From a virus (taxonomy: Duplodnaviria > Heunggongvirae > Uroviricota > Caudoviricetes), in the IMG/VR virus record IMGVR_UViG_2609459846_000016: a stretch of 8,047 bases of DNA, one strand, 5' to 3'. How positions within the stretch are numbered: the first letter of the stretch is position 1; the number at the start of each line of letters is the position of its first letter. The position numbers and the translations under genes are program-made. Shown here one piece after another: positions 1 to 7,948 of this stretch. The notes beneath the pieces are model-generated. The model was not told the DNA's origin. It saw only the letters and a program-made list of their open reading frames with translations, and ran no database searches.

Positions 1-1
1 A

Positions 2-214
2 CTGACCAATCAGCTGGTGCAGACGGTAAGGGGGTATATCCGCGAATGCCTGCAATGGATGATTGATGACGGTGTGGTGTCCCGTATTGATCTGGATATC
101 CGCCGCACCGGGATTAATGAACTGGGTAACAGTATCACTCTCTGGCGACGTGACGGACCGGTAATGATTTCTTTTGATAATCTGTGGAGTGCGATAACGC
201 ATGGCGGACAGTGA
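2..214 (+). CDS. Phage baseplate protein, 3' end only (gene continues upstream of the window); probably the gp46/GPW-like wedge subunit that precedes gp47 in Mu-like tail modules
   Basis: Frame is open from the first base of the window to TGA at 212-214; the track shows only the last 65 aa (from an internal GTG at 17). It is co-oriented with the downstream baseplate J-like gene, whose ATG at 201 overlaps it by 14 nt. Identity is inferred from gene order only; I do not recognise motifs in the 70 visible residues. Confidence 0.45.
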   Translation: MTNQLVQTVRGYIRECLQWMIDDGVVSRIDLDIRRTGINELGNSITLWRRDGPVMISFDNLWSAITHGGQ

Positions 215-1283
215 ATTTCAGCGCCCGACGCTGGCAGAAAATATCAGTATGCTCCGTAACGATTTATTCGCCAGGCTGGACGTCAGTGACCCACTCCGGC
301 GCATGGATGAAGACGTGCGGGCAAAGGTGTATGCGGCGGCGCTGCATACGGTTTACGGTTACATCGATTATCTGGCAATGAACATACTGCCTGACCGGTG
401 TGATGAATCCTGGCTGGCGCGACATGCTGCGATGAAACGGTGTCCGCGCAAGGGGGCCACGGCTGCCAGCGGGTATATGCGCTGGGAAGATGTCAGCGAT
501 GACCTGAAGGTGACCGCCGGGAGTGTTATTCAGCGCGATGACCTGGTTCAGTACACAGCAACTGCCGATGCAACCAGCTCCAGTGGTGTCCTGCGCGTGC
601 CGATCGCCTGCTCAACTGCAGGTGCGGTCGGTAATGCTGACGACGGTACGGCATTAATCCTGGTCACGCCGGTGAATGGTCTGCCGTCGTCTGGTGTGGC
701 TGATACCCTGACCGGCGGATTCGATACTGAAGATCTGGAAACGTGGCGCGCCCGCGTCATTGAGCGGTATTACTGGACGCCTCAGGGCGGGGCTGACGGG
801 GATTATGTCGTCTGGGCTAAAGAAGTGCCTGGTATTACGCGCGCATGGACATACCGTCACTGGAGAGGAATAGGAACGGTAGGGGTGATGGTGGCGACAA
901 ACGATCCGGAACATCCGGCTCCGGATGAAAGCGTCATTAATGCAGTCAGAGAGCACATTCTTCCTCTGACACCGGTTGCCGGAAGCGGATTGTATGTATT
1001 CGGTGCCACAGAAAAAGTCATCCCGATGACGATTGCATTATCGAAAGACACACCGCAGATCAGGACTGCAATAAAAGCAGAGCTGAATGCACTGATGTTA
1101 CGGGATGGTGTGCCAGAGGGGCGTATGTATCTGTCCAGAATCAGTGAGGCCATCAGTTTGTCTGCTGGTGAAGTGGCCCACCGGTTAATCGTCCCTTCAT
1201 CGGATATTGACCTGGGGGAGACCGAGCTTCCGGTGCTCGGCGAGATCACCTGGCAGGCTTATGACCCGGCAAGGAGTAAATAA
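201..1283 (+). CDS. Baseplate J / gp47-family baseplate assembly protein
   Basis: 360-aa ORF. The N-terminal region (MADSEFQRPTLAEN...VYGYIDYLAMNILPD...) matches the pattern I recall for Mu gp47 / P2 gpJ-type proteins. Its TAA stop (1281-1283) overlaps the next ATG (1283) as TAATG. GC is roughly 50-55 percent, like the other baseplate genes. Confidence 0.8.
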   Translation: MADSEFQRPTLAENISMLRNDLFARLDVSDPLRRMDEDVRAKVYAAALHTVYGYIDYLAMNILPDRCDESWLARHAAMKRCPRKGATAASGYMRWEDVSDDLKVTAGSVIQRDDLVQYTATADATSSSGVLRVPIACSTAGAVGNADDGTALILVTPVNGLPSSGVADTLTGGFDTEDLETWRARVIERYYWTPQGGADGDYVVWAKEVPGITRAWTYRHWRGIGTVGVMVATNDPEHPAPDESVINAVREHILPLTPVAGSGLYVFGATEKVIPMTIALSKDTPQIRTAIKAELNALMLRDGVPEGRMYLSRISEAISLSAGEVAHRLIVPSSDIDLGETELPVLGEITWQAYDPARSK

Positions 1284-2242
1284 TGGATTCGTTACAGGAT
1301 GATTATAAAAAGCTGCTGTACGGACTGATGCCGCCGGGGCCTGCATGGAGCGATACCGACGGCGTGCTTGATGGTCTGGCACCATCGCTTGTACGTGTTC
1401 ATCAGCGGGCTGATGAACTGATGGCTGAAATCGATCCTGGTCAGTCAACAGAGCTGATTGAACGTTATGAAGAATTGTATGGTTTACCTGACACCTGCTC
1501 TCCTGTTGGAGCCCAGACATTACGCCAGCGTCAGCAACGGCTGGAAGCAAAAGCCAATGTGGCTGGTGGCATAAATGAGCAGTTCTTCCTGGAGCAGCTT
1601 GAGGCGCTGGGATATACCGGCGTGACGATCGAACAGTTCCAGCACCTGGATGCAAGCCCCGATCCGGAATGGGGTGATCGCTGGCGTTATTTCTGGCGTG
1701 TGACGTTGCCGGTGGATGCCGGTGCTCAGTGGCAGACATGTTCGGACACCTGTAACACACCGATCCGGACGTGGGGTGATACGGTTGCGGAATGCGTGAT
1801 TAATAAATTATGTCCGTCGCATACTGTTGTCCTTTTTGCATATCCGGATGAGTCTGGTGAAGTGCAACAAGCCGCCCTGACTATAAACAGCCTCTCCTTT
1901 CAGGCCGGACACAAGACGACTGAGCCATTAGCGATTAATCATACAGGTGTTCATTTTGCGGTTGTTCCGGCACTGACAGGTAAGCCGCTGACAATTAACC
2001 GGATTAACTTTTATGCCGCCCGTCCGATGGCAGAGCCACTGGTACTCAGCAGGGCGCAATTGCACTCAGGTCTGCCGACAACGGACCCCATGACCATGAA
2101 CAGCGCACAGTTGCAGACGGGATACAGGACCCGCTCCCCCGTACCAGTTAACAGTATGCAGTTGCAGACAGCCAGCAGACCCCGTGAACCGTTATTGATT
2201 AATCACCCGGGACTGCATTTTGCTGTGGTCACGTCCGAATGA
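1283..2242 (+). CDS. DUF2313/YmfQ-like phage tail protein (Mu gp48 / P2 gpI position) with a ~125-aa repeat-containing C-terminal extension
   Basis: 319-aa ORF with AAGGAG at 1271-1276, 6 nt before the ATG. N-terminal residues 1 to ~190 (LLYGLMPPGPAW ... ELIERYEELYGLPD ...) resemble YmfQ-type proteins, which I recall as ~190-200 aa. Residues ~195-319 carry internal repeats: EPLAINHTGVHFAVV and EPLLINHPGLHFAVV, and four copies of an xTxNSxQLQ-type unit. The matching DNA-level direct repeats are visible at about 1921-1975 and 2183-2240. Confidence 0.75.
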   Translation: MDSLQDDYKKLLYGLMPPGPAWSDTDGVLDGLAPSLVRVHQRADELMAEIDPGQSTELIERYEELYGLPDTCSPVGAQTLRQRQQRLEAKANVAGGINEQFFLEQLEALGYTGVTIEQFQHLDASPDPEWGDRWRYFWRVTLPVDAGAQWQTCSDTCNTPIRTWGDTVAECVINKLCPSHTVVLFAYPDESGEVQQAALTINSLSFQAGHKTTEPLAINHTGVHFAVVPALTGKPLTINRINFYAARPMAEPLVLSRAQLHSGLPTTDPMTMNSAQLQTGYRTRSPVPVNSMQLQTASRPREPLLINHPGLHFAVVTSE

Positions 2243-2265
2243 CATAAAATAAAAGGAGAGCCGCT

Positions 2266-3315
2266 TTGAATATTATTAAACTCGAAAGTTTTCGACAAAT
2301 TCCGGCGAATGAGGGATTGTGCGAGAACTATTATTCAACAAATATTATTTCAGCACTGAACGAAAACGGTGTCACGCTTATCAATGATATGTCCGGTTCT
2401 GTAACATCCGTCTGTCGTGGCACTCAGGCCGTAAATACTGTAGAAAGAACGGGGCTGATTTTTACGACACCCTCATATGTCACACTGTACAGCACACTTC
2501 CGGACTTAAAAGCCTCAGCTGTACAGCTGGGATTTCGTCTGACATTAAGTGCGGGAAAGAAATATTCATCTTCGCCATCCCACATCAGGATTAATGGCTA
2601 TTCATTTACAACCCCGTATCCTGATGAAGCAGCCAGTTATTACTATGAAATTTTCGCAACGCGAAACGAAAACGGCTATGTCTCAGCCAGTCTGTACTGC
2701 AACCGCTCATTAGTTGGAAATGCATCGTTTTATGTATCAGATGACCGGACTGACAAAATTCAGGTGAGTATTGGTAGTGGTGACAATATTTTTTCATCGG
2801 GTGCATCCGGCACGTTAATGCTGGGTGATATGTACTGTGGAACAGTGACATACGGTAGAAATAATAGTGCAGAACCCGCCCTGCTCGGAAGCATTGAGGT
2901 CAGATACAGCCCGGTAACGGCATTTACCGGTGGAAGCGCCAAAAACTCACTGAATAAAGATATTGTCACGGGGCTGAACACCTCTGACAGCGAGGCCGGA
3001 TATCTGATGCTCTCGCCCTCCCTGAATGCAGCACAGGCCACGTTTGGTGCGGTGGATAACAGCAACAGTGATGTTGTGGCTGTTATGGCCTCGGTCACTT
3101 ACCGCGGTGCTGATGCCCCCAATAACCGCCTGGCCTGGAAAGTGAAAAATGGCAGCCATGCAGGCGCAACGATTACAGAGAATGGCGTACAAAGCGACAC
3201 AAACAGCTGGACGACTGTCTCACAGAGTTTTATGGCCCAGCCAGGCGGAGAAACGCCTTTCACAAAGGGTGAACTGACTTTCACAGCGGAATTGTTTAAT
3301 CAGGCAAGGACATAA
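2266..3315 (+). CDS. Hypothetical protein, 349 aa, Ser/Thr/Asn/Gly/Tyr-rich; probable tail-associated or receptor-binding accessory protein, or a horizontally acquired cargo gene
   Basis: Long ORF starting at TTG 2266 with AGGAG at 2254-2258 (7-nt spacer). It sits 23 nt after the DUF2313 gene and 30 nt before the fibre gene, on the same strand. GC is visibly lower (about 40-45 percent) than the baseplate genes. No hydrophobic N-terminus or transmembrane stretch; composition suggests a beta-rich protein. I recognise no family. Confidence 0.6.
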   Translation: MNIIKLESFRQIPANEGLCENYYSTNIISALNENGVTLINDMSGSVTSVCRGTQAVNTVERTGLIFTTPSYVTLYSTLPDLKASAVQLGFRLTLSAGKKYSSSPSHIRINGYSFTTPYPDEAASYYYEIFATRNENGYVSASLYCNRSLVGNASFYVSDDRTDKIQVSIGSGDNIFSSGASGTLMLGDMYCGTVTYGRNNSAEPALLGSIEVRYSPVTAFTGGSAKNSLNKDIVTGLNTSDSEAGYLMLSPSLNAAQATFGAVDNSNSDVVAVMASVTYRGADAPNNRLAWKVKNGSHAGATITENGVQSDTNSWTTVSQSFMAQPGGETPFTKGELTFTAELFNQART

Positions 3316-3345
3316 TTCTGATATTTCATTCACGGGAGGTTTAAT

Positions 3346-4455
3346 ATGCACAGAATTGACACTCCGACAGCAGTTAAAGATAAATTTGGCCCGGGCAAGA
3401 ACGGATTTACTGACGGGAATATTCGTACAGGGCGTCATGCCACCTGGCTGAACAGTGCCATGTGGGATGCCCTTCAGGAGGAAATCTGTGGTGTCATTGA
3501 GAAGGCCGGGATAGAACTGAATAAAGAGGAACACGACCAGTTATATAAAGCCATATTATTACTGGTGGGCGGTGCAATTAACGAAGAGGCATTGCTGATA
3601 AAAAATAATCTTTCGGATGTCGAAGACAGTGATGAGGCTGTTGAAAACCTCGGATTAAAACCCACGGTGGATAAGGCAAAAAATGCCGTTCAGCGTGATG
3701 GAGACACCATGACCGGGGAGCTGAAAATCAGTGGTGTTAATGCACTGAGGATTTTCAACGAAGCCTTTGGTCTGATTTTTCGTCGTTCGGAAGAGTGTCT
3801 GCACCTCATTCCTACCCGGGAAAATCAGGGCGAGAGTGGTGATATTGGGCCGCTACGCCCCTTTACGCTTAATCTCAGGACCGGTCGCATAACTATGGGA
3901 CACGGTCTGGATGTTACAGAAGATGTATTTGCAGGCCGTTTAGCGATTAACAGCAGTAACGGAACGTGGATTCAGATGCGTGACAACAACGTTATTTTCG
4001 GGAAAAACAGGATAAATACTGATGCTGCTCAGGCGCTTCTGCGTCAGGATCATGCAGACAGAAAGTATTTCCTGGCTGGTCTTGGGAATAAGCAGTTTGG
4101 CATTTACATGATAAATAATAGCCGTACGGATAATGGTACGGACGGTCAGGCGTATATGGATGATGCGGGAAACTGGCGATGCGGGCGTCAGGTTATACCG
4201 TCAGACTACGGAAACTTCGATGCCCGCTACCAGACCAAAACAGGTGGCGTACAGAATTTTCAGTATACCAGTGAGGTGTTTTACAACCCGGGCGGGAACG
4301 AGCACAGCTGGACGTTTCGAGCACCTTCTGGTTGTGTTTTGTCAGGCATTAATGTTCAGGATACTGGCCGTAACTCTGCAGACAATATCGGTGGCGTGTA
4401 TTACAAACAGGCTCAGATTTATATTAATGGTGCATGGCGATCTGTATCAGGTTAA
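3346..4455 (+). CDS. Phage tail fibre protein (Mu S / P2 gpH-like)
   Basis: 369-aa ORF with GGGAGG at 3334-3339 before the ATG. Motifs shared with tail fibres as I recall them: ALLIKNNLSD, ENLGLKPTV...NAVQRDGDTMTGELKI (compare P2 H LGLQETVNRAGNAVQKNGDTLSGGL) and a C-terminal ...IYINGAWRSV. The ENLGL motif at 3641-3667 is the usual constant/variable junction. Confidence 0.85.
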   Translation: MHRIDTPTAVKDKFGPGKNGFTDGNIRTGRHATWLNSAMWDALQEEICGVIEKAGIELNKEEHDQLYKAILLLVGGAINEEALLIKNNLSDVEDSDEAVENLGLKPTVDKAKNAVQRDGDTMTGELKISGVNALRIFNEAFGLIFRRSEECLHLIPTRENQGESGDIGPLRPFTLNLRTGRITMGHGLDVTEDVFAGRLAINSSNGTWIQMRDNNVIFGKNRINTDAAQALLRQDHADRKYFLAGLGNKQFGIYMINNSRTDNGTDGQAYMDDAGNWRCGRQVIPSDYGNFDARYQTKTGGVQNFQYTSEVFYNPGGNEHSWTFRAPSGCVLSGINVQDTGRNSADNIGGVYYKQAQIYINGAWRSVSG

Positions 4456-4469
4456 TTAAGGAGAAAATA

Positions 4470-5000
4470 ATGGAACTCTCAAACATTACGCGTTACTACC
4501 CTGAAGACATGCCTTATGGTGACGGCATTCAGTATTTCCGTAGTGAAGACGGGCAGGATTTTTATGAATCACTGGATAAATTCACGAAGAAATACAAGCT
4601 GTGCACGCATCCTGAAACCGGCGTTATTTATTCCGTGGCGGAAGATGTATCCCGTCTTTATCCCGTTGGTTTTACCATTGTGGAAGTGGATGAACTACCG
4701 GATGGTTTTTGTATAGAGGCGCGCTGGTATTATAAAGACGGTGAAGTACTACCGGTCCCTGTTGATTACAGGCAGCAGGCAGAGTCGGAGCGTGCACGTC
4801 TTACTGCGATTGCTGAACGGGAAATATCCGATAAGAAGACGGATTTACTTTTGGGAATCATCGGTGATGAAGAAAAAGAAAAGCTGACAGTCTGGCGCAT
4901 TTACGCGAAATTGCTGCAGGCGATGGATTTCAGCACCATCACTGATAAAACCTCATATAACGCCATTGAATGGCCCGTCTCTCCGGAAGCCTCTTCCTGA
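4470..5000 (+). CDS. Tail fibre assembly protein (Tfa / Mu U / P2 gpG-like chaperone)
   Basis: 176 aa. ATG at 4470 is preceded by AGGAG at 4459-4463 and lies 14 nt after the fibre stop. The C-terminus (...KLTVWRIYAKLLQAMDFSTITDKTSYNAIEWPVSP) matches the conserved Tfa C-terminus, for example lambda Tfa ...APDIEWPAVP as I recall. The track start at 4434 overlaps the fibre gene and has no RBS, so 4470 is preferred. Confidence 0.85.
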   Translation: MELSNITRYYPEDMPYGDGIQYFRSEDGQDFYESLDKFTKKYKLCTHPETGVIYSVAEDVSRLYPVGFTIVEVDELPDGFCIEARWYYKDGEVLPVPVDYRQQAESERARLTAIAEREISDKKTDLLLGIIGDEEKEKLTVWRIYAKLLQAMDFSTITDKTSYNAIEWPVSPEASS

Positions 5001-5089
5001 TTTAATTTATCGCGAGAAAAATTATGTCTGTAGTGATATCAGGTGCGCTGACAGATGGCGCAGGCGCAGGTCGATCGCAATGACGAGAT

Positions 5090-5360
5090 TTATCGCCGTA
5101 GGAGGGAGATGAAGGAAGAACTGAGCAGTCTGGGGGATTTGAAGTCGATTAGGAATTTTATAGTGGAATAACAGAAGCCGCGGCACGTCGTATGCAAGAA
5201 CGCACCGCGGCAGGCACCAATATTTTTTGTGAAGGTATCTTTTCCCGGAATATCTGCGCCGTTCTGGTTTTTCTGTAATGCGCCAGAAGCCTGATTTACC
5301 GTTTCCTGTAAACCGAGGTTTTTGAGAATTGCCTCCGTGTCGTCTGAACGATATTTTTTC
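5090..5360 (-). pseudogene. Truncated remnant of an alternative tail-fibre segment (S'-like) in inverted orientation
   Basis: Minus-strand translation of about 5212-5360 gives KKYRSDDTEAILKNLGLQETVNQASGALQKNQNGADIPGKDTFTKNIGA, paralogous to the + strand fibre residues SDEAVENLGLKPTVDKAKNAVQRDGDTMTG. The frame then runs into non-fibre-like sequence and stops at 5090. There is no room for the rest of a fibre or a second assembly gene. The track ORF 5090..5467 starts inside the IS terminal repeats, so its first ~40 codons are not fibre-derived. Confidence 0.4.
5303..5328. other. Gin/Hin/Pin/Cin-family DNA-invertase crossover site (gix/hix-like)
   Basis: TTCCTGTAAACCGAGGTTTTTGAGAA is an imperfect palindrome about a central GA. 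It differs at 2 of 26 positions from the Mu gix sequence as I remember it (TTCCTGTAAACCGAGGTTTTGGATAA). On the minus strand it encodes N-L-G-L-Q-E, the fibre junction motif. Confidence 0.6.
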
Positions 5361-5409
5361 CCGCTTTCAGCAACAATCGCGGGCCAGAAAGTATGCAATA
5401 TAGTTATGT

Positions 5410-5542
5410 GCAAAATGGCATCTGAATCGATCGCAGTTTGGCATTCGAATCGATCATGATTTGGCATTCATCTCCGATCACAGTTTGGCATCACAATCGA
5501 TCACGATTTGGCATGCTTCCGATCATTGATTGGCATCCTGCC
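5410..5542. repeat. Left terminal multi-repeat array of the IS (5 tandem ~23-bp units plus a partial sixth)
   Basis: CGATC anchors at 5428, 5451, 5476, 5498 and 5520 (spacing 22-25 bp), each followed by (A/G)TTTGGCAT; a partial unit AAAATGGCATC lies at 5412-5422. Confidence 0.7.
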
Positions 5543-5610
5543 AGTCACTCCGGGAATTAACTCTTTTCACCACAGTCTCCATTGCCGTGTTTAAACCAGT
5601 GGAGACGTCA

Positions 5611-7176
5611 ATGTCCAGAAAGAGAAAATCCAGGAGCACTATGGAAACCTGTTTTAAGATCCTTCAGCTCAAGTTCGACAAGAAGCTGACTAACCGTTGT
5701 ATCGGACTGACGTTACACATCAGCGCCTCAACCGTTTTTGAGGTTCTTGCCCGCTTCAAAGCCTCTTCTCTGTCATGGCCATTACCTGCTGATATATCCC
5801 ATGACACGCTGGAGAAACTCATTTTTCCGCCCAAAGACACCTTTGCATCAGAGCTTGTAATGCCTGACATGTTGTACTTCGATACGGAAATGAGAAAACC
5901 AGGTGTGACGCGGCAACTGTTGTGGATGGAATACAAGGCACAGGCGGGTGACAAAGCGATGGGATACTCGCACTTCTGCCGTTGCTACCGGGAGTGGAAA
6001 AAAACGCGACGTCTCTCCATGCGCCAGGAGCATCGTGCCGGCGAAAAGCTTTTTATCGACTTCTGTGGTCCTACGGTTCCTGTTATTAATCCGGACACCG
6101 GTGAGATACGCCGCGTGGCAATCTTCGTGGCCGTAATGGGGGCGTCCAACTATACCTACGTTGAAGCGTGCGAAGGTCAGGACATGATGTCATGGTTAAA
6201 TGCCCACAGCCGTTGCCTGACCTTCCTGGGCGGCGTACCGAAGCTGCTCATCCCCGATAACCTCAGAAGCGCAGTGAAAAAGGCCGATCGCTATGAGCCT
6301 GTCATCAACGACAGTTATCAGGCACTGGCTGAGCACTATGGCACGGTTATCATCCCGGCCCGACCACGCAAACCTAAAGATAAACCAAAAGCAGAAAACG
6401 GCGTCCTCATCGTCGAACGATGGCTTCTTGCCCGCATCCGTAATGAAACCTTCCACACGCTCAGGGCGCTGAATGCGCGCCTTAGGGAGTTACTGACAGA
6501 CATGAATAACCGGCCAATGAAGGGGTACGGCAATCAAACCCGTGCAGAACGCTTCCGCATACTGGATGCGCCAGCACTCTCTCCGCTGCCTCTGGCACCT
6601 TATGAATACACGGAATACAAAGCTGTGAAGGTTGGCCCTGACTACCACGTTGAATATGCCCGTCACTGGTACTCCGTTCCACACGAACTGGTCGGTCAGC
6701 GTCTGTCACTGAAGGCGGGGCAGTCGGTGGTACAGCTCTGGCACAAGGGGCAGTGTGTGGCGCAACATCCGCGCAGCACACATGAATATAAACACACAAC
6801 CAATCCGCTTCACATGCCAGAGCGCCACCGGCAGCACGGGACATGGACACCGGAACGCCTGATCGAGCAGGGAAAACGTACGGGCCCGTCCACAGGCCGG
6901 GTGGTTGAATCCATGCTGAAGGCAAAACCCCATCCGGAACTGGCTTATCGTGCAGTTCTGGGGCTGCTGGCACTTCAGAAAAAATACGGCCCGGAACGGC
7001 TGGAAAAGGCCTGTTACGTTGCCCTGCACTATAACGCCCCTGACAGACGCTTTATCGACAATCTGCTGCGTCACCATCGGGAGAACCTGGAGCTTCCATT
7101 ATCCCGCCAGGGCGAACAACATCCGGCATATGCTTCAGAGCATGAAAACCTGCGTGGTCCGGGCTACTACCACTGA
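5611..7176 (+). CDS. istA: IS21-family transposase IstA (N-terminal HTH plus DDE integrase core)
   Basis: 521 aa from ATG 5611 (GGAGA at 5601-5605). Motifs typical of IstA: FIDFCGP, FVAVMGASNYTYVE, FLGGVPKLLIPDN, KPKAENGV. The track start at 5530 is a TTG inside the terminal repeats and is rejected. An alternative ATG at 5641 also has an AGGAG 4 nt upstream. Confidence 0.9.
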   Translation: MSRKRKSRSTMETCFKILQLKFDKKLTNRCIGLTLHISASTVFEVLARFKASSLSWPLPADISHDTLEKLIFPPKDTFASELVMPDMLYFDTEMRKPGVTRQLLWMEYKAQAGDKAMGYSHFCRCYREWKKTRRLSMRQEHRAGEKLFIDFCGPTVPVINPDTGEIRRVAIFVAVMGASNYTYVEACEGQDMMSWLNAHSRCLTFLGGVPKLLIPDNLRSAVKKADRYEPVINDSYQALAEHYGTVIIPARPRKPKDKPKAENGVLIVERWLLARIRNETFHTLRALNARLRELLTDMNNRPMKGYGNQTRAERFRILDAPALSPLPLAPYEYTEYKAVKVGPDYHVEYARHWYSVPHELVGQRLSLKAGQSVVQLWHKGQCVAQHPRSTHEYKHTTNPLHMPERHRQHGTWTPERLIEQGKRTGPSTGRVVESMLKAKPHPELAYRAVLGLLALQKKYGPERLEKACYVALHYNAPDRRFIDNLLRHHRENLELPLSRQGEQHPAYASEHENLRGPGYYH

Positions 7177-7192
7177 CAGAAGGAACAACAGT

Positions 7193-7948
7193 ATGAGTGA
7201 TAACCTGTTAAACAAACTGACCCAACTGAAACTCCCGGCGATGGCCGGGAGCCTGATACGGCAGCGGGAAACGCCTCAGACCTACGACGAACTGTCGTTC
7301 GAGGAAAGGCTGACGCTGCTGGTTGATGACGAGCTTCTGAGCAGGGAAAACAGCCGTGTGGCACGGTTGAGAAAAAATGCCGGCCTGAAATACCAGGCAA
7401 CACCGGAAGGGCTGCGCTATCCGGCCTCAAGAGGTCTGCGGGCTGAACAGATGAGAGAACTGCTGAACGGCCACTACATAACCCACAGGAAAAACCTGCT
7501 GATAACCGGTCCGACAGGATGTGGCAAGAGCTGGATAGCCAATGCACTGGGCGAACAGGCATGTCGACAGAAACACAGCGTCCGGTACTGTAGAACCGGG
7601 CGATTACTGGAACAACTGGCTCAGGGACGTGTTGATGGCAGCTGGCTGAAATATCTGAAACAGTTGCAAAAAATACAGGTTCTAATCCTGGACGATCTGG
7701 GGCTGGAACAGTTAAGTAACGCCCAGTGTAATGACCTTCTGGAGCTCATAGAGGATCGTTACGGACAAAGCAGCACGATAGTGGTAAGTCAGTTCCCGGT
7801 AGATAAATGGCATGGTCTGATGGAGAACCCAACAACAGCAGATGCCATCCTGGACAGACTGGTACATAACTCACACCGGGTGGTCCTTCAGGGAGAGTCA
7901 CTGAGGAAAAATCCCCCGGTAGTGGAAAGCAGCGAAAAAACGCGTTAA
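7193..7948 (+). CDS. istB: IS21-family helper ATPase IstB (DnaC-like AAA+)
   Basis: 251 aa from ATG 7193, 16 nt after the istA stop. Walker A GPTGCGKS and Walker B VLILDDLG are present. The track ORF begins at 6950, overlapping istA; 7193 is preferred. Confidence 0.9.
   Translation: MSDNLLNKLTQLKLPAMAGSLIRQRETPQTYDELSFEERLTLLVDDELLSRENSRVARLRKNAGLKYQATPEGLRYPASRGLRAEQMRELLNGHYITHRKNLLITGPTGCGKSWIANALGEQACRQKHSVRYCRTGRLLEQLAQGRVDGSWLKYLKQLQKIQVLILDDLGLEQLSNAQCNDLLELIEDRYGQSSTIVVSQFPVDKWHGLMENPTTADAILDRLVHNSHRVVLQGESLRKNPPVVESSEKTR

What the first reader, a model, noticed from the sequence alone, without database searches (positions are those of the whole stretch)
2266..3315. Unrecognised low-GC 349-aa gene inserted between the DUF2313 tail gene and the tail fibre gene
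In Mu-type and e14-type tail modules, as I recall them, the fibre gene directly follows the DUF2313/gp48 gene. Here a 1.05-kb ORF sits between them, tightly packed (23-nt and 30-nt gaps, strong RBS, TTG start) and co-oriented, so it is probably co-expressed with the late tail operon. Its GC is clearly lower than the baseplate genes. The protein is Ser/Thr/Asn/Gly/Tyr-rich with no signal peptide or membrane segment and no motif I can place in a known family. It could be a new receptor-binding or fibre-decorating protein, or a moron such as a superinfection-exclusion or anti-defence function riding in the tail operon.
Basis: partly seen in the sequence, partly recalled or inferred. Interest (0 to 1): 0.75.

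Follow-up and report, generated by a model that had tools for sequence, protein, structure and literature searches.

The report
Portable two-part phage tail adhesin cassette
The unrecognised gene is real and is half of a movable two-part tail module: a lectin-like protein that always occurs with a short peptide-repeat tail grafted onto different phage tail anchor proteins, most likely giving the virus an extra way to grip its host.

Summary
The ORF at 2266-3315 (349 aa, TTG start, AGGAG 7 nt upstream) is real and under purifying selection (dN/dS about 0.2). It matches only PHROG 8291, 'unknown function'. It was not inserted alone. Compared with a close relative that lacks it, the window carries a 1,483-bp cassette (1853-3335). 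The cassette holds a 129-aa C-terminal extension of the gp48/YmfQ baseplate wedge protein plus the 349-aa gene. The extension consists of six or seven 17-aa repeats (PLxINxxQLQSGxxxxE) and a hydrophobic cap.

In 13 of 14 lineages examined, a homologue of the 349-aa protein is accompanied by a 17-19-aa repeat tail of this kind; the fourteenth keeps only a cap-like remnant. The tail is fused to Mu gp48, P2 gpI, the lambda Stf N-terminus or the P2 gpH N-terminus, or stands alone. AlphaFold2 (pLDDT 91) predicts two concanavalin-like jelly-roll domains. The only full-length fold matches are Casjensviridae tail-region proteins, two of which were detected in virions by mass spectrometry; one protein bridges the two families at sequence level.

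Best reading: a separately encoded, probably glycan-binding tail subunit that docks on the repeat tail. The moron and anti-defence readings have no support. Docking, presence in the virion and the ligand are inferred, not shown. Neither half occurs in 50,697 sequenced phage records.

The parts
1283..1852 (+). gp48/YmfQ baseplate wedge core (aa 1-190), the resident anchor
   Evidence: Pfam Phage_Mu_Gp48 covers aa 13-187, E 7e-25. It is 88 % nt-identical to the 196-aa short YmfQ of L002, which lacks the cassette. About 105 of 119 homologue clusters are 187-211 aa long.
1853..3335 (+). Inserted cassette: gp48 C-terminal extension, spacer, 349-aa gene and spacer
   Evidence: Absent from L002, whose flanks are contiguous. 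The same block (window 1899-3310, 96.7 % identity) sits in a Mu-like com/mom prophage (L003) whose flanks show no nucleotide similarity to the window.
1871..2239 (+). Repeat tail of gp48 (aa 197-319). One degenerate unit at 1871-1924. A 20-aa internal cap-like unit at 1925-1984 (PLAINHTGVHFAVVPALTGK). Four 17-aa units at 1985-2035, 2036-2086, 2087-2137 and 2138-2188. Terminal cap at 2189-2239 (PLLINHPGLHFAVVTSE).
   Evidence: Units parsed. BLOSUM62 autocorrelation is 115 at lag 17 against a shuffled maximum of 40, 0 of 2000 shuffles reaching it. No tandem repeat at DNA level. AF2 pLDDT is below 50 over aa 190-319, so it is not predicted to fold as a monomer. Homologous repeat tails accompany a p349 homologue in 13 of the 14 lineages examined.
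2254..2258 (+). Shine-Dalgarno AGGAG for the 349-aa gene
   Evidence: Read directly from the sequence; it ends 7 nt before the TTG at 2266.
2266..3315 (+). 349-aa protein (p349, PHROG 8291, RefSeq WP_032257365.1 'hypothetical protein')
   Evidence: phrog_8291 matched over 1-349 of 349, E 1e-244. AF2 pLDDT 91, pTM 0.90. dN/dS about 0.2. Only 17 representatives among 1.84 billion proteins.
2266..2865 (+). p349 N-terminal jelly-roll domain (aa 1-200), including the conserved N-terminal strand and motif MNIIxLE(G/S)FRQIP
2866..3312 (+). p349 conserved linker (aa 201-250) and more variable C-terminal beta-sandwich (aa 251-349)
   Evidence: The C-domain has 6 invariant columns of 99 and falls to 32-47 % identity in distant members, against 41-55 % for the N-domain. 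GC 53.1 %.
3346..4455 (+). Resident tail fibre (369 aa), kept alongside the cassette
   Evidence: phrog_6859 tail fibre, E 1e-170. Its N-terminus is 89 % nt-identical to the fibre that directly follows the short gp48 in L002.
4470..5000 (+). Tail fibre assembly protein (Tfa) for the resident fibre
   Evidence: Pfam Caudo_TAP, E 1e-21. The start follows the RefSeq annotation in L001.

Best explanation
The 349-aa protein is a virion tail component. It is the separately encoded distal subunit of a portable two-part appendage.

Part one is a C-terminal tail of three to seven tandem 17-19-aa repeats ending in a short hydrophobic cap. Recombination grafts this tail onto whichever protein anchors appendages to the tail. 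In this window the anchor is the baseplate wedge protein gp48. Elsewhere it is P2 gpI, the lambda side-tail-fibre N-terminus or the P2 gpH N-terminus.

Part two is the 349-aa protein, made of two lectin-like jelly-roll domains. The proposal is that it docks non-covalently on the repeat tail through its conserved N-terminal strand and N-domain. Its jelly-roll surfaces would then face the cell and bind a surface polysaccharide. The phage keeps its ordinary fibre and chaperone, so the cassette would add a second adhesin and alter host range.

Shown here: the gene is real and constrained; the cassette boundaries; the co-occurrence of the two halves across 14 lineages and at least four anchor classes; the fold; and the relationship to virion proteins. 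Inferred: physical docking, presence in this phage's virion, glycan binding and stoichiometry.
For: 1. Linkage. A repeat tail ends 1-45 nt upstream of the p349 homologue in the adjacent-gene loci: window, L003, L020, L021-23, L041, L035/36, L029-32, L014, L040, L016/L004, L042 and L043. In L011/12/L038 the tail lies in the same tail module but separated by the fibre and tfa genes.

2. Anchors typed by Pfam. Phage_Mu_Gp48, phage_tail_N, Phage_tail_fib and Tail_P2_I, the last covering aa 6-142 of a 300-aa protein.

3. The same head on different anchors. p349 is 98.8 % identical in L014, where the anchor is a Stf N-terminus and the tail is only about 36 % identical. It is 89 % identical in L016 on a gpH-type anchor.

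4. Reverse test. Only 4 of 119 gp48 homologue clusters carry an extension, and all four carry this repeat tail. In complete E. coli genomes the extension occurs in 59 genomes and p349 in 64, with abutting coordinates in the rows listed. The relative without the extension, L002, has no p349.

5. Discrete cassette at 1853-3335, also found in an unrelated Mu-like background.

7. Link to virion proteins. Full-length Foldseek matches (E 7e-15, TM 0.66) fall on proteins of similar size in Casjensviridae siphophages. The top hit is AchV4_0026. It and its paralogue AchV4_0025 are encoded directly after the putative tail fibre gene and were detected in virions by LC-MS/MS (PMC7996906 Table 1).

8. Sequence bridge. 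P0041 matches the p349 profile (E 1.4e-6) and also phrog_2448, the AchV4_0025/26/27 family (E 5e-5).

9. Conservation pattern. The N-terminal strand, N-domain and linker are the most conserved parts and the C-domain the most variable. This fits a docking end and a ligand end.

10. No sigma-70-like promoter or terminator-like site falls in either intergenic gap.

11. Mechanistic precedent. The gp48/gpI homologue TssG is present once per wedge. It anchors two TssK trimers by inserting short hydrophobic loops into their N-terminal cavities (PMC6300606).
Against: No direct evidence of binding.

No cultured phage carries the module, so no virion proteomics exists for p349 itself.

Divergence across p349 is fairly even rather than sharply concentrated at a distal tip, which is less typical of receptor-binding proteins.

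gp48 and gpI are expected at one copy per wedge, whereas Stf and gpH anchors are trimers. One docking mode has to work in both settings.

In L033 the partner is reduced to a 64-aa ORF with a single cap-like unit. In L040 the tail lacks the hydrophobic cap. The cap is therefore not strictly required.

The jelly-roll fold is generic, and the link to the virion proteins is remote (hhalign against single sequences gave only 0.3-22 % probability).
Confidence: 0.55

Rival explanations
1. p349 is an assembly chaperone or transient cap for the repeat tail. It would be analogous to Tfa, to T4 gp38 or to the Alteromonas phage 'chaperone caps'. It would be needed to fold or stabilise the extension but would not itself be the receptor-binding element, and might be absent from mature virions.
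For: It is encoded directly downstream of the C-terminus it would act on, which is the classical chaperone position. The extension is not predicted to fold alone. Loci with a Stf N-terminal anchor plus p349 have no Caudo_TAP gene after them. Precedents for fibre-tip caps exist (PMC10579305, title and abstract).
Against: No similarity to Caudo_TAP or any chaperone family. At 349 aa with two lectin-like jelly rolls it is unlike known fibre chaperones. Its structural relatives are found in virions (PMC7996906). In L011/12/L038 it is separated from the repeat tail by the fibre and tfa genes.
Confidence: 0.15
2. p349 is a baseplate-tethered polysaccharide-degrading enzyme, a jelly-roll lyase or hydrolase, rather than a passive lectin. 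It would clear capsule, colanic acid or O-antigen. It would still be attached through the repeat tail.
Against: Non-catalytic CBMs and lectins match equally well. No sequence match to any lyase or hydrolase family. The conserved residues could equally form the docking site.
Confidence: 0.12
3. p349 is a moron, a non-structural passenger such as a superinfection-exclusion, anti-defence or lysogenic-conversion gene carried in the tail operon.
For: Patchy distribution, about 1 % of E. coli genomes. Lower GC in its 5' half. In some prophages it is the last gene before the attachment-site end.
Against: Linked to a repeat tail on tail anchor proteins in 13 of 14 lineages examined. No promoter-like site of its own. 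No PADLOC hit. No signal peptide or membrane segment. Fold and remote homology point to virion proteins.
Confidence: 0.05

Closest known systems
PHROG 2448 proteins of Casjensviridae siphophages (e.g. Achromobacter phage AchV4 gp0025, gp0026 and gp0027; Chi-like Salmonella, Providencia and Proteus phages)
   Same: Similar size (333-377 aa) and the same two-jelly-roll architecture over the full length (Foldseek E 7e-15, TM 0.66). They share the N-terminal motif phi-(E/D)-G-F-(R/D)-Q. They are encoded next to a tail fibre gene. One protein, P0041, bridges the two families at sequence level.
   Different: No direct sequence match: tblastn finds nothing and hhalign is weak. In AchV4 there are three tandem paralogues, and no 17-aa repeat tail is visible on the upstream AchV4_0024. 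Their function is also unknown; they are annotated 'virion structural protein' or 'hypothetical'.
T6SS TssG-TssK baseplate attachment (EAEC; PMC6300606), with lactococcal phage BppU-BppL as a related case
   Same: TssG is the homologue of Mu gp48 and P2 gpI and is present once per wedge. Short hydrophobic loops from one chain each anchor an RBP-like oligomer through its N-terminal residues. Here gp48 or gpI carries tandem short hydrophobic units, and the partner's N-terminus is its most conserved segment.
   Different: In TssG the docking elements are two internal loops, not a C-terminal tandem array. TssK is unrelated in fold to p349. Docking here is inferred and not shown. The same repeat tail also occurs on trimeric fibre N-termini.
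T2/T6/S16-type gp38 adhesin on the tip of long tail fibre gp37
   Same: A receptor-binding subunit encoded as a separate gene directly downstream of the fibre protein whose distal end it occupies. It is exchanged as a module. This comparison rests on general knowledge.
   Different: No sequence or fold relationship (no Pfam hit). gp38 is smaller and built on glycine-rich motifs. The carrier here is a short repeat tail on a baseplate wedge protein, not a long fibre.
Tail fibre assembly proteins (Caudo_TAP: lambda Tfa, Mu U, P2 G)
   Same: Encoded immediately after the C-terminus of a fibre-type protein. Some stay bound to the fibre tip.
   Different: p349 has no Caudo_TAP signature, is twice the size and has a lectin-like fold. 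A genuine Tfa for the resident fibre is present separately at 4470-5000.
Triple beta-spiral fibre shafts (adenovirus fibre, reovirus sigma1, PRD1 P5)
   Same: Short (about 15-17 aa) pseudo-repeats with a conserved Pro/Gly and alternating hydrophobic residues, as in PLVINRxQLQSGxxxxE. The comparison is recalled from general knowledge.
   Different: Beta-spirals need three identical chains, whereas gp48 and gpI are expected once per wedge. AF2 gives no fold for the region. There is no sequence match.

Membership tests
PHROG 8291 (unknown function) | Full-length match to the family HMM | tested here: met
   E 1.1e-244, residues 1-349 against profile 1-349 of 349. The distant relatives P0027 and P0030 also match.
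Concanavalin A-like lectin/glucanase fold | Curved two-sheet jelly-roll beta-sandwich | tested here: met
   [not shown]
Concanavalin A-like lectin/glucanase fold | Carbohydrate binding | not testable with these tools
   Needs glycan arrays or binding assays.
Jelly-roll polysaccharide lyases (PL7, PL14, PL20, PL36) | Catalytic Tyr with Arg/Gln/His/Lys placed in the concave cleft; family sequence motifs | tested here: inconclusive
   [not shown]
PHROG 2448 / AchV4-type virion tail proteins | Homology to members shown to be in virions | tested here: inconclusive
   Full-length Foldseek E 7e-15, TM 0.66. Bridging protein P0041. Direct profile-to-sequence comparison is weak, probability 0.3-22 %.
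Tail fibre assembly chaperones (Caudo_TAP, PF02413) | Match to the Caudo_TAP domain | tested here: not met
   No Pfam hit at E up to 0.1 for p349, while the gene at 4434-5000 matches at E 1e-21.
Anti-phage defence or anti-defence proteins | Match to a known defence-system component | tested here: not met
   PADLOC gives no families for p349 or gp48.
Mu gp48 / YmfQ (DUF2313) baseplate wedge protein (the upstream gene) | Phage_Mu_Gp48 domain, position after Baseplate_J | tested here: met
   PF10076, E 7e-25, aa 13-187, directly after PF04865. aa 190-319 lie outside the domain and are absent from about 105 of 119 homologue clusters.
Bipartite receptor-binding appendage (anchor with docking peptide plus a separately encoded head) | Conserved genetic coupling of the two parts across different anchors | tested here: met
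   14 lineages and at least four anchor classes. One lineage, L033, is degenerate.
Bipartite receptor-binding appendage (anchor with docking peptide plus a separately encoded head) | Physical complex, presence in the virion and a role in adsorption | not testable with these tools
No cultured phage carries the module.

The most novel reading that the evidence does not exclude
The tandem 17-19-aa units form a multivalent docking array. Each unit, with its three spaced hydrophobic residues, would plug into the N-terminal end of one p349 oligomer, as each TssG loop does with a TssK trimer. A single gp48 or gpI chain per wedge would then carry three to seven lectin heads. That would turn a fibre-type myovirus baseplate into a multi-RBP 'brush' resembling lactococcal phage baseplates. 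The number of repeats would set the valency, and the cassette could be transplanted onto any tail anchor, making it a natural plug-and-play system for displaying receptor-binding proteins.
Probability: 0.25. Interest if true: 0.8.

Novelty: new variant of a known kind. Interest (0 to 1): 0.6.

Why it matters
Host range in tailed phages is set by exchangeable receptor-binding modules, and the rules for how such modules attach are known for only a few systems. This would be an undescribed attachment system, consisting of a short peptide-repeat tail and a dedicated lectin-like head. Nature has moved it between four kinds of anchor: Mu gp48, P2 gpI, lambda Stf and P2 gpH.

It also shows a conserved baseplate wedge protein acquiring its own appendage. 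That parallels the way its T6SS homologue TssG holds TssK.

If the docking is confirmed, the cassette would be a compact, portable handle for engineering phage, tailocin or packaged-cosmid host range. It would also give a first function to two 'unknown' PHROG families, 8291 and 2448, the second of which occurs in at least 169 sequenced phage records. The module is found mainly in human enterotoxigenic and other diarrhoeal E. coli isolates, and RefSeq currently mis-annotates its carrier gene as a pseudogene.

Tried and rejected
- Megablast and tblastn of p349 against 50,697 phage records found nothing. The same was true for the repeat tail.
- A protein search with the extension alone returned a single fragment, apparently a limit of the word index.
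- The scan of one genome per species gave only one locus, in E. albertii.
- Tandem Repeats Finder found no DNA-level repeat in the extension. The periodicity exists only at protein level.
- A profile search of PDB sequences gave nothing meaningful.
- Foldseek against PDB gave no two-domain match; all TM-scores were below 0.3.
- The afdb50 library was unavailable.
- AF2 of full-length gp48 left the extension unfolded, which says nothing either way.
- hhalign of the p349 profile against single AchV4 sequences was too weak to show homology. The link rests on the fold match and the P0041 bridge instead.
- Literature searches for YmfQ with tail fibre, and for Stf adhesin modules, found no description of this cassette.
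- The odd hit of the extension under a 'protein mom' annotation in strains E92 and E94 turned out to be a deletion scar in a decayed Mu-like prophage.
- Rejected: not a real gene (dN/dS about 0.2).
- Rejected: an ordinary conserved tail component. It is absent from close relatives and from about 99 % of E. coli genomes.
- Rejected: a defence gene.
Full report
THE OBSERVATION

The window is part of an E. coli prophage. Positions 1-5410 are 100 % identical to strain E203449 and other complete genomes. That prophage combines an HK97-type head module with a Mu-type contractile tail.

The ORF at 2266-3315 (+) exists exactly as described. It encodes 349 aa. Its TTG is the first possible start, 6 codons after an in-frame stop. 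AGGAG lies 7 nt upstream. The gaps to the gp48 stop and to the fibre ATG are 23 and 30 nt.

The neighbours are Baseplate_J, Phage_Mu_Gp48, a tail fibre and a Caudo_TAP chaperone. The protein is rich in Ser, Thr, Gly, Asn and Tyr and has no hydrophobic segment. It has no Pfam, NCBIfam or PADLOC match. Its only family is PHROG 8291, 'unknown function', and RefSeq calls it 'hypothetical protein'.

It is a real gene. dN/dS is 0.18-0.30 against seven homologues that range from 97 % to 40 % identity.

The GC claim needs qualifying. At 47.0 % the gene is below gp47 (56.0 %) and gp48 (53 %), but it equals the fibre (47.4 %) and tfa (46.3 %). Its own 5' part is 42.3 % and its 3' part 53.1 %.

WHAT WAS ACTUALLY INSERTED

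A close relative, L002, has gp47, then a 196-aa YmfQ, then a fibre gene that overlaps it, and no extra gene. Similarity between the window and L002 runs over 660-1852 (88 %) and resumes at 3336-3884 (89 %), while L002 is contiguous across that point.

The window therefore carries a 1,483-bp block at 1853-3335. The block begins inside gp48, directly after the sequence ...AYPDE. It adds 129 codons to that gene, then a spacer, then the 349-aa gene.

The same block (window 1899-3310, 96.7 % identity) lies in a Mu-like prophage with com and mom (L003). That prophage's gp48 core and flanks show no nucleotide similarity to the window.

Among 119 clusters of gp48 homologues, about 105 are 187-211 aa long. 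Only four carry an extension, and in each it is this one. PGAP flags the long gp48 as a truncated pseudogene in several genomes. The reading frame is nevertheless intact in every lineage.

THE EXTENSION IS A PEPTIDE-REPEAT TAIL

gp48 aa 197-319 consist of the following parts:
- one degenerate unit;
- a 20-aa cap-like unit (PLAINHTGVHFAVVPALTGK);
- four 17-aa units of the type PLxINxxQLQSGxxxxE;
- a terminal cap (PLLINHPGLHFAVVTSE).

The 17-residue periodicity is far beyond chance. The BLOSUM62 autocorrelation is 115 at lag 17, against a maximum of 40 in 2000 shuffles. No repeat is detectable at DNA level. AlphaFold2 folds the gp48 core moderately well but leaves aa 190-319 below pLDDT 50. That is compatible with a segment that becomes ordered only in a complex, but it proves nothing.

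THE TWO HALVES TRAVEL TOGETHER

The family is tiny. It has 27 clusters at 90 % identity and 17 representatives among 1.84 billion proteins. I collected loci for 14 lineages.

In each lineage the tail module also encodes a protein ending in 17-19-aa tandem repeats. In most lineages that protein ends 1-45 nt upstream of the p349 homologue. Pfam types the N-terminal parts of these carriers:

- Mu gp48: window; L003; L020; L021-23; L041 with three units; and L011/12/L038, where the fibre and tfa genes lie between the carrier and p349.
- Lambda side-tail-fibre N-terminus (phage_tail_N): L014; L029-32; L035/36 from Raoultella; and L040 in a J-lom-stf context.
- P2 gpH-type N-terminus (Phage_tail_fib): L016 and L004 from E. 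albertii.
- P2 gpI: L042. The Tail_P2_I domain covers aa 6-142 of 300 aa and is followed by four 18-aa units, SVPVKAINGTxINAGNVL, and a cap.
- A free-standing 90-aa ORF of four 19-aa units: L043, the most distant member.

One lineage, L033, is degenerate. A 64-aa ORF with one cap-like unit lies in frame behind a stop codon that ends a Stf N-terminal protein.

Nearly identical heads sit on different anchors. p349 is 98.8 % identical in L014, on a Stf N-terminal anchor whose tail is only about 36 % identical. It is 89 % identical in L016, on a gpH-type anchor.

In complete E. coli genomes the extension is found in 59 genomes and p349 in 64, out of 5,426, and the coordinates abut in the rows listed. 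Neither half occurs in 50,697 sequenced phage records.

WHAT THE PROTEIN LOOKS LIKE

AlphaFold2 on the family alignment gives a confident model (pLDDT 91, pTM 0.90). It has an N-terminal strand, a large jelly-roll domain (to about aa 195), a conserved linker and a second beta-sandwich.

Foldseek against predicted viral structures does give full-length matches (E 7e-15 to 1e-9, TM 0.55-0.68). The targets are 306-400-aa proteins of Casjensviridae-type siphophages. The top hit, at 352 aa, is AchV4_0026. It and its paralogue AchV4_0025 lie directly after the putative tail fibre gene AchV4_0024, and both were detected in purified virions by LC-MS/MS (PMC7996906, Table 1).

These proteins belong to PHROG 2448. 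Relatives occur in 169 phage records, nearly all annotated 'hypothetical'. They share with the p349 family an N-terminal motif, phi-(E/D)-G-F-(R/D)-Q.

Direct profile-to-sequence comparison is weak. However, P0041 matches both the p349 profile (E 1.4e-6) and PHROG 2448 (E 5e-5). I therefore regard the two families as remote homologues. This is the main reason to expect p349 in the virion.

CONSERVATION

The N-terminal strand, the N-domain core strands and the linker are the most conserved parts. Invariant residues include Q87, R91, K99, Y125, Y126, E128, Y144, D188 and Y190. The C-terminal sandwich is the most variable part in distant members.

Some homologues are mosaic between the domains. 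P0008 is 75 % identical in the N-domain and 88 % in the C-domain, while P0009 is 82 % and 67 %. This matches the GC step inside the window's gene.

HOW IT MOST LIKELY WORKS

Shown:
- a discrete cassette;
- co-occurrence of a repeat tail and a lectin-like protein across at least four anchor classes;
- purifying selection;
- no promoter-like or terminator-like site in either intergenic gap;
- structural and remote sequence kinship to virion tail proteins.

Inferred: p349 docks non-covalently on the repeat tail and is displayed at the baseplate periphery (here) or on a side-fibre stub (elsewhere). There it would bind a surface glycan. The phage keeps its resident fibre and Tfa, so this would be a second adhesin.

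A useful precedent comes from the T6SS. TssG is the homologue of T4 gp7, P2 gpI and Mu gp48. It is present once per wedge and holds two TssK trimers by inserting short hydrophobic loops into the cavity formed by their N-terminal residues (PMC6300606). A single gp48 chain with several short hydrophobic units, paired with a partner whose N-terminus is its most conserved segment, fits that logic. It also raises the possibility of several heads per chain. I put the overall model at about 0.55.

Rivals:
- A chaperone or cap role (0.15).
- A tethered depolymerase (0.12), which is a variant of the main model.
- A non-structural moron (0.05).

COMPARISON WITH KNOWN SYSTEMS, AND NOVELTY

Separately encoded adhesins on fibre tips (T2 gp38) and peptide-mediated RBP docking (TssG-TssK, BppU-BppL) are known principles. 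This particular pair appears undescribed: I found no matching family, solved structure or paper. The same is true of its transplantation between wedge proteins and fibre N-termini. I therefore rate it a new variant of a known kind, with interest 0.6.

LIMITS

There is no evidence of binding, and neither the oligomeric state nor the ligand is known. Virion presence is inferred from remote relatives. The jelly-roll fold is generic. The census of repeat tails that lack a partner is limited to the collections I could search.

Noticed in passing
window 5411-7948: An IS21-family element (istA ORF 5530-7176, with rve and Mu-transposase C-terminal domains; istB within 6950-7948, IstB_IS21 E 2e-60) is inserted just past the tail module. 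Identity to complete E. coli genomes ends at 5410, and no genome covers the junction. The left end (about 5420-5530) carries several TTTGGCAT repeats.
   Followed up: partly
window 5001-5410: Debris of further tail-fibre genes lies downstream of tfa. On the plus strand at about 5025 there is a 19-codon stub of a prophage tail fibre N-terminal gene (MSVVISGALTDGAGAGRSQ*). On the minus strand, ORF 5090-5467 contains fibre-like sequence. RefSeq annotates partial DUF4376, tail-protein and tfa fragments here, which suggests a decayed invertible or alternative fibre segment.
   Followed up: no
window 1283-2242; L001 19018-19974; L038 4605-5600: PGAP annotates the long gp48 as a pseudogene ('YmfQ family protein, incomplete, missing C-terminus') and leaves the repeat tail unannotated in several RefSeq genomes. 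The 319-aa frame is intact and conserved. In L003 the equivalent 324-aa protein is annotated normally.
   Followed up: yes
window 2266-3315: The 349-aa gene is itself mosaic. Codons 1-200 have 42 % GC and codons 201-349 have 53 %. Homologues show discordant identity between the two domains (for example 75 % and 88 %, or 82 % and 67 %), which implies recombination between the domains.
   Followed up: partly
[not shown]
   Followed up: no
L033 5002-5988: In a lambdoid prophage, the partner of the most divergent E. coli homologue (P0027) is a 64-aa ORF with a single cap-like unit. It lies in the same frame as the preceding Stf N-terminal gene and is separated from it by one stop codon and 18 nt. 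This could be a nonsense-split gene or a genuinely minimal partner.
   Followed up: partly
L044 (E. coli E92) 4370-5421: The first 108 nt of the repeat tail (81.5 % identity) lie between a truncated YmfQ gene and a truncated mom gene, abutting the latter, in a decayed Mu-like prophage. This is a deletion scar that removed p349, the fibre and tfa.
   Followed up: yes
L038 (plasmid NZ_OZ547049.1, 249 kb) 1-8056: The whole Mu-type baseplate plus the cassette (order gp48-long, fibre, tfa, p349) sits on a large plasmid next to ssb, parB, psiB/psiA and hok. This is a prophage fragment or phage-plasmid hybrid.
   Followed up: no
(strain lists): Many carriers of the cassette are human diarrhoeal or enterotoxigenic E. 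coli isolates (B7A, ETEC6, TD225-C4, E2528-C1, ATCC 43886 and an O166:H15 outbreak lineage). Some genomes hold two to five copies or fragments.
   Followed up: no
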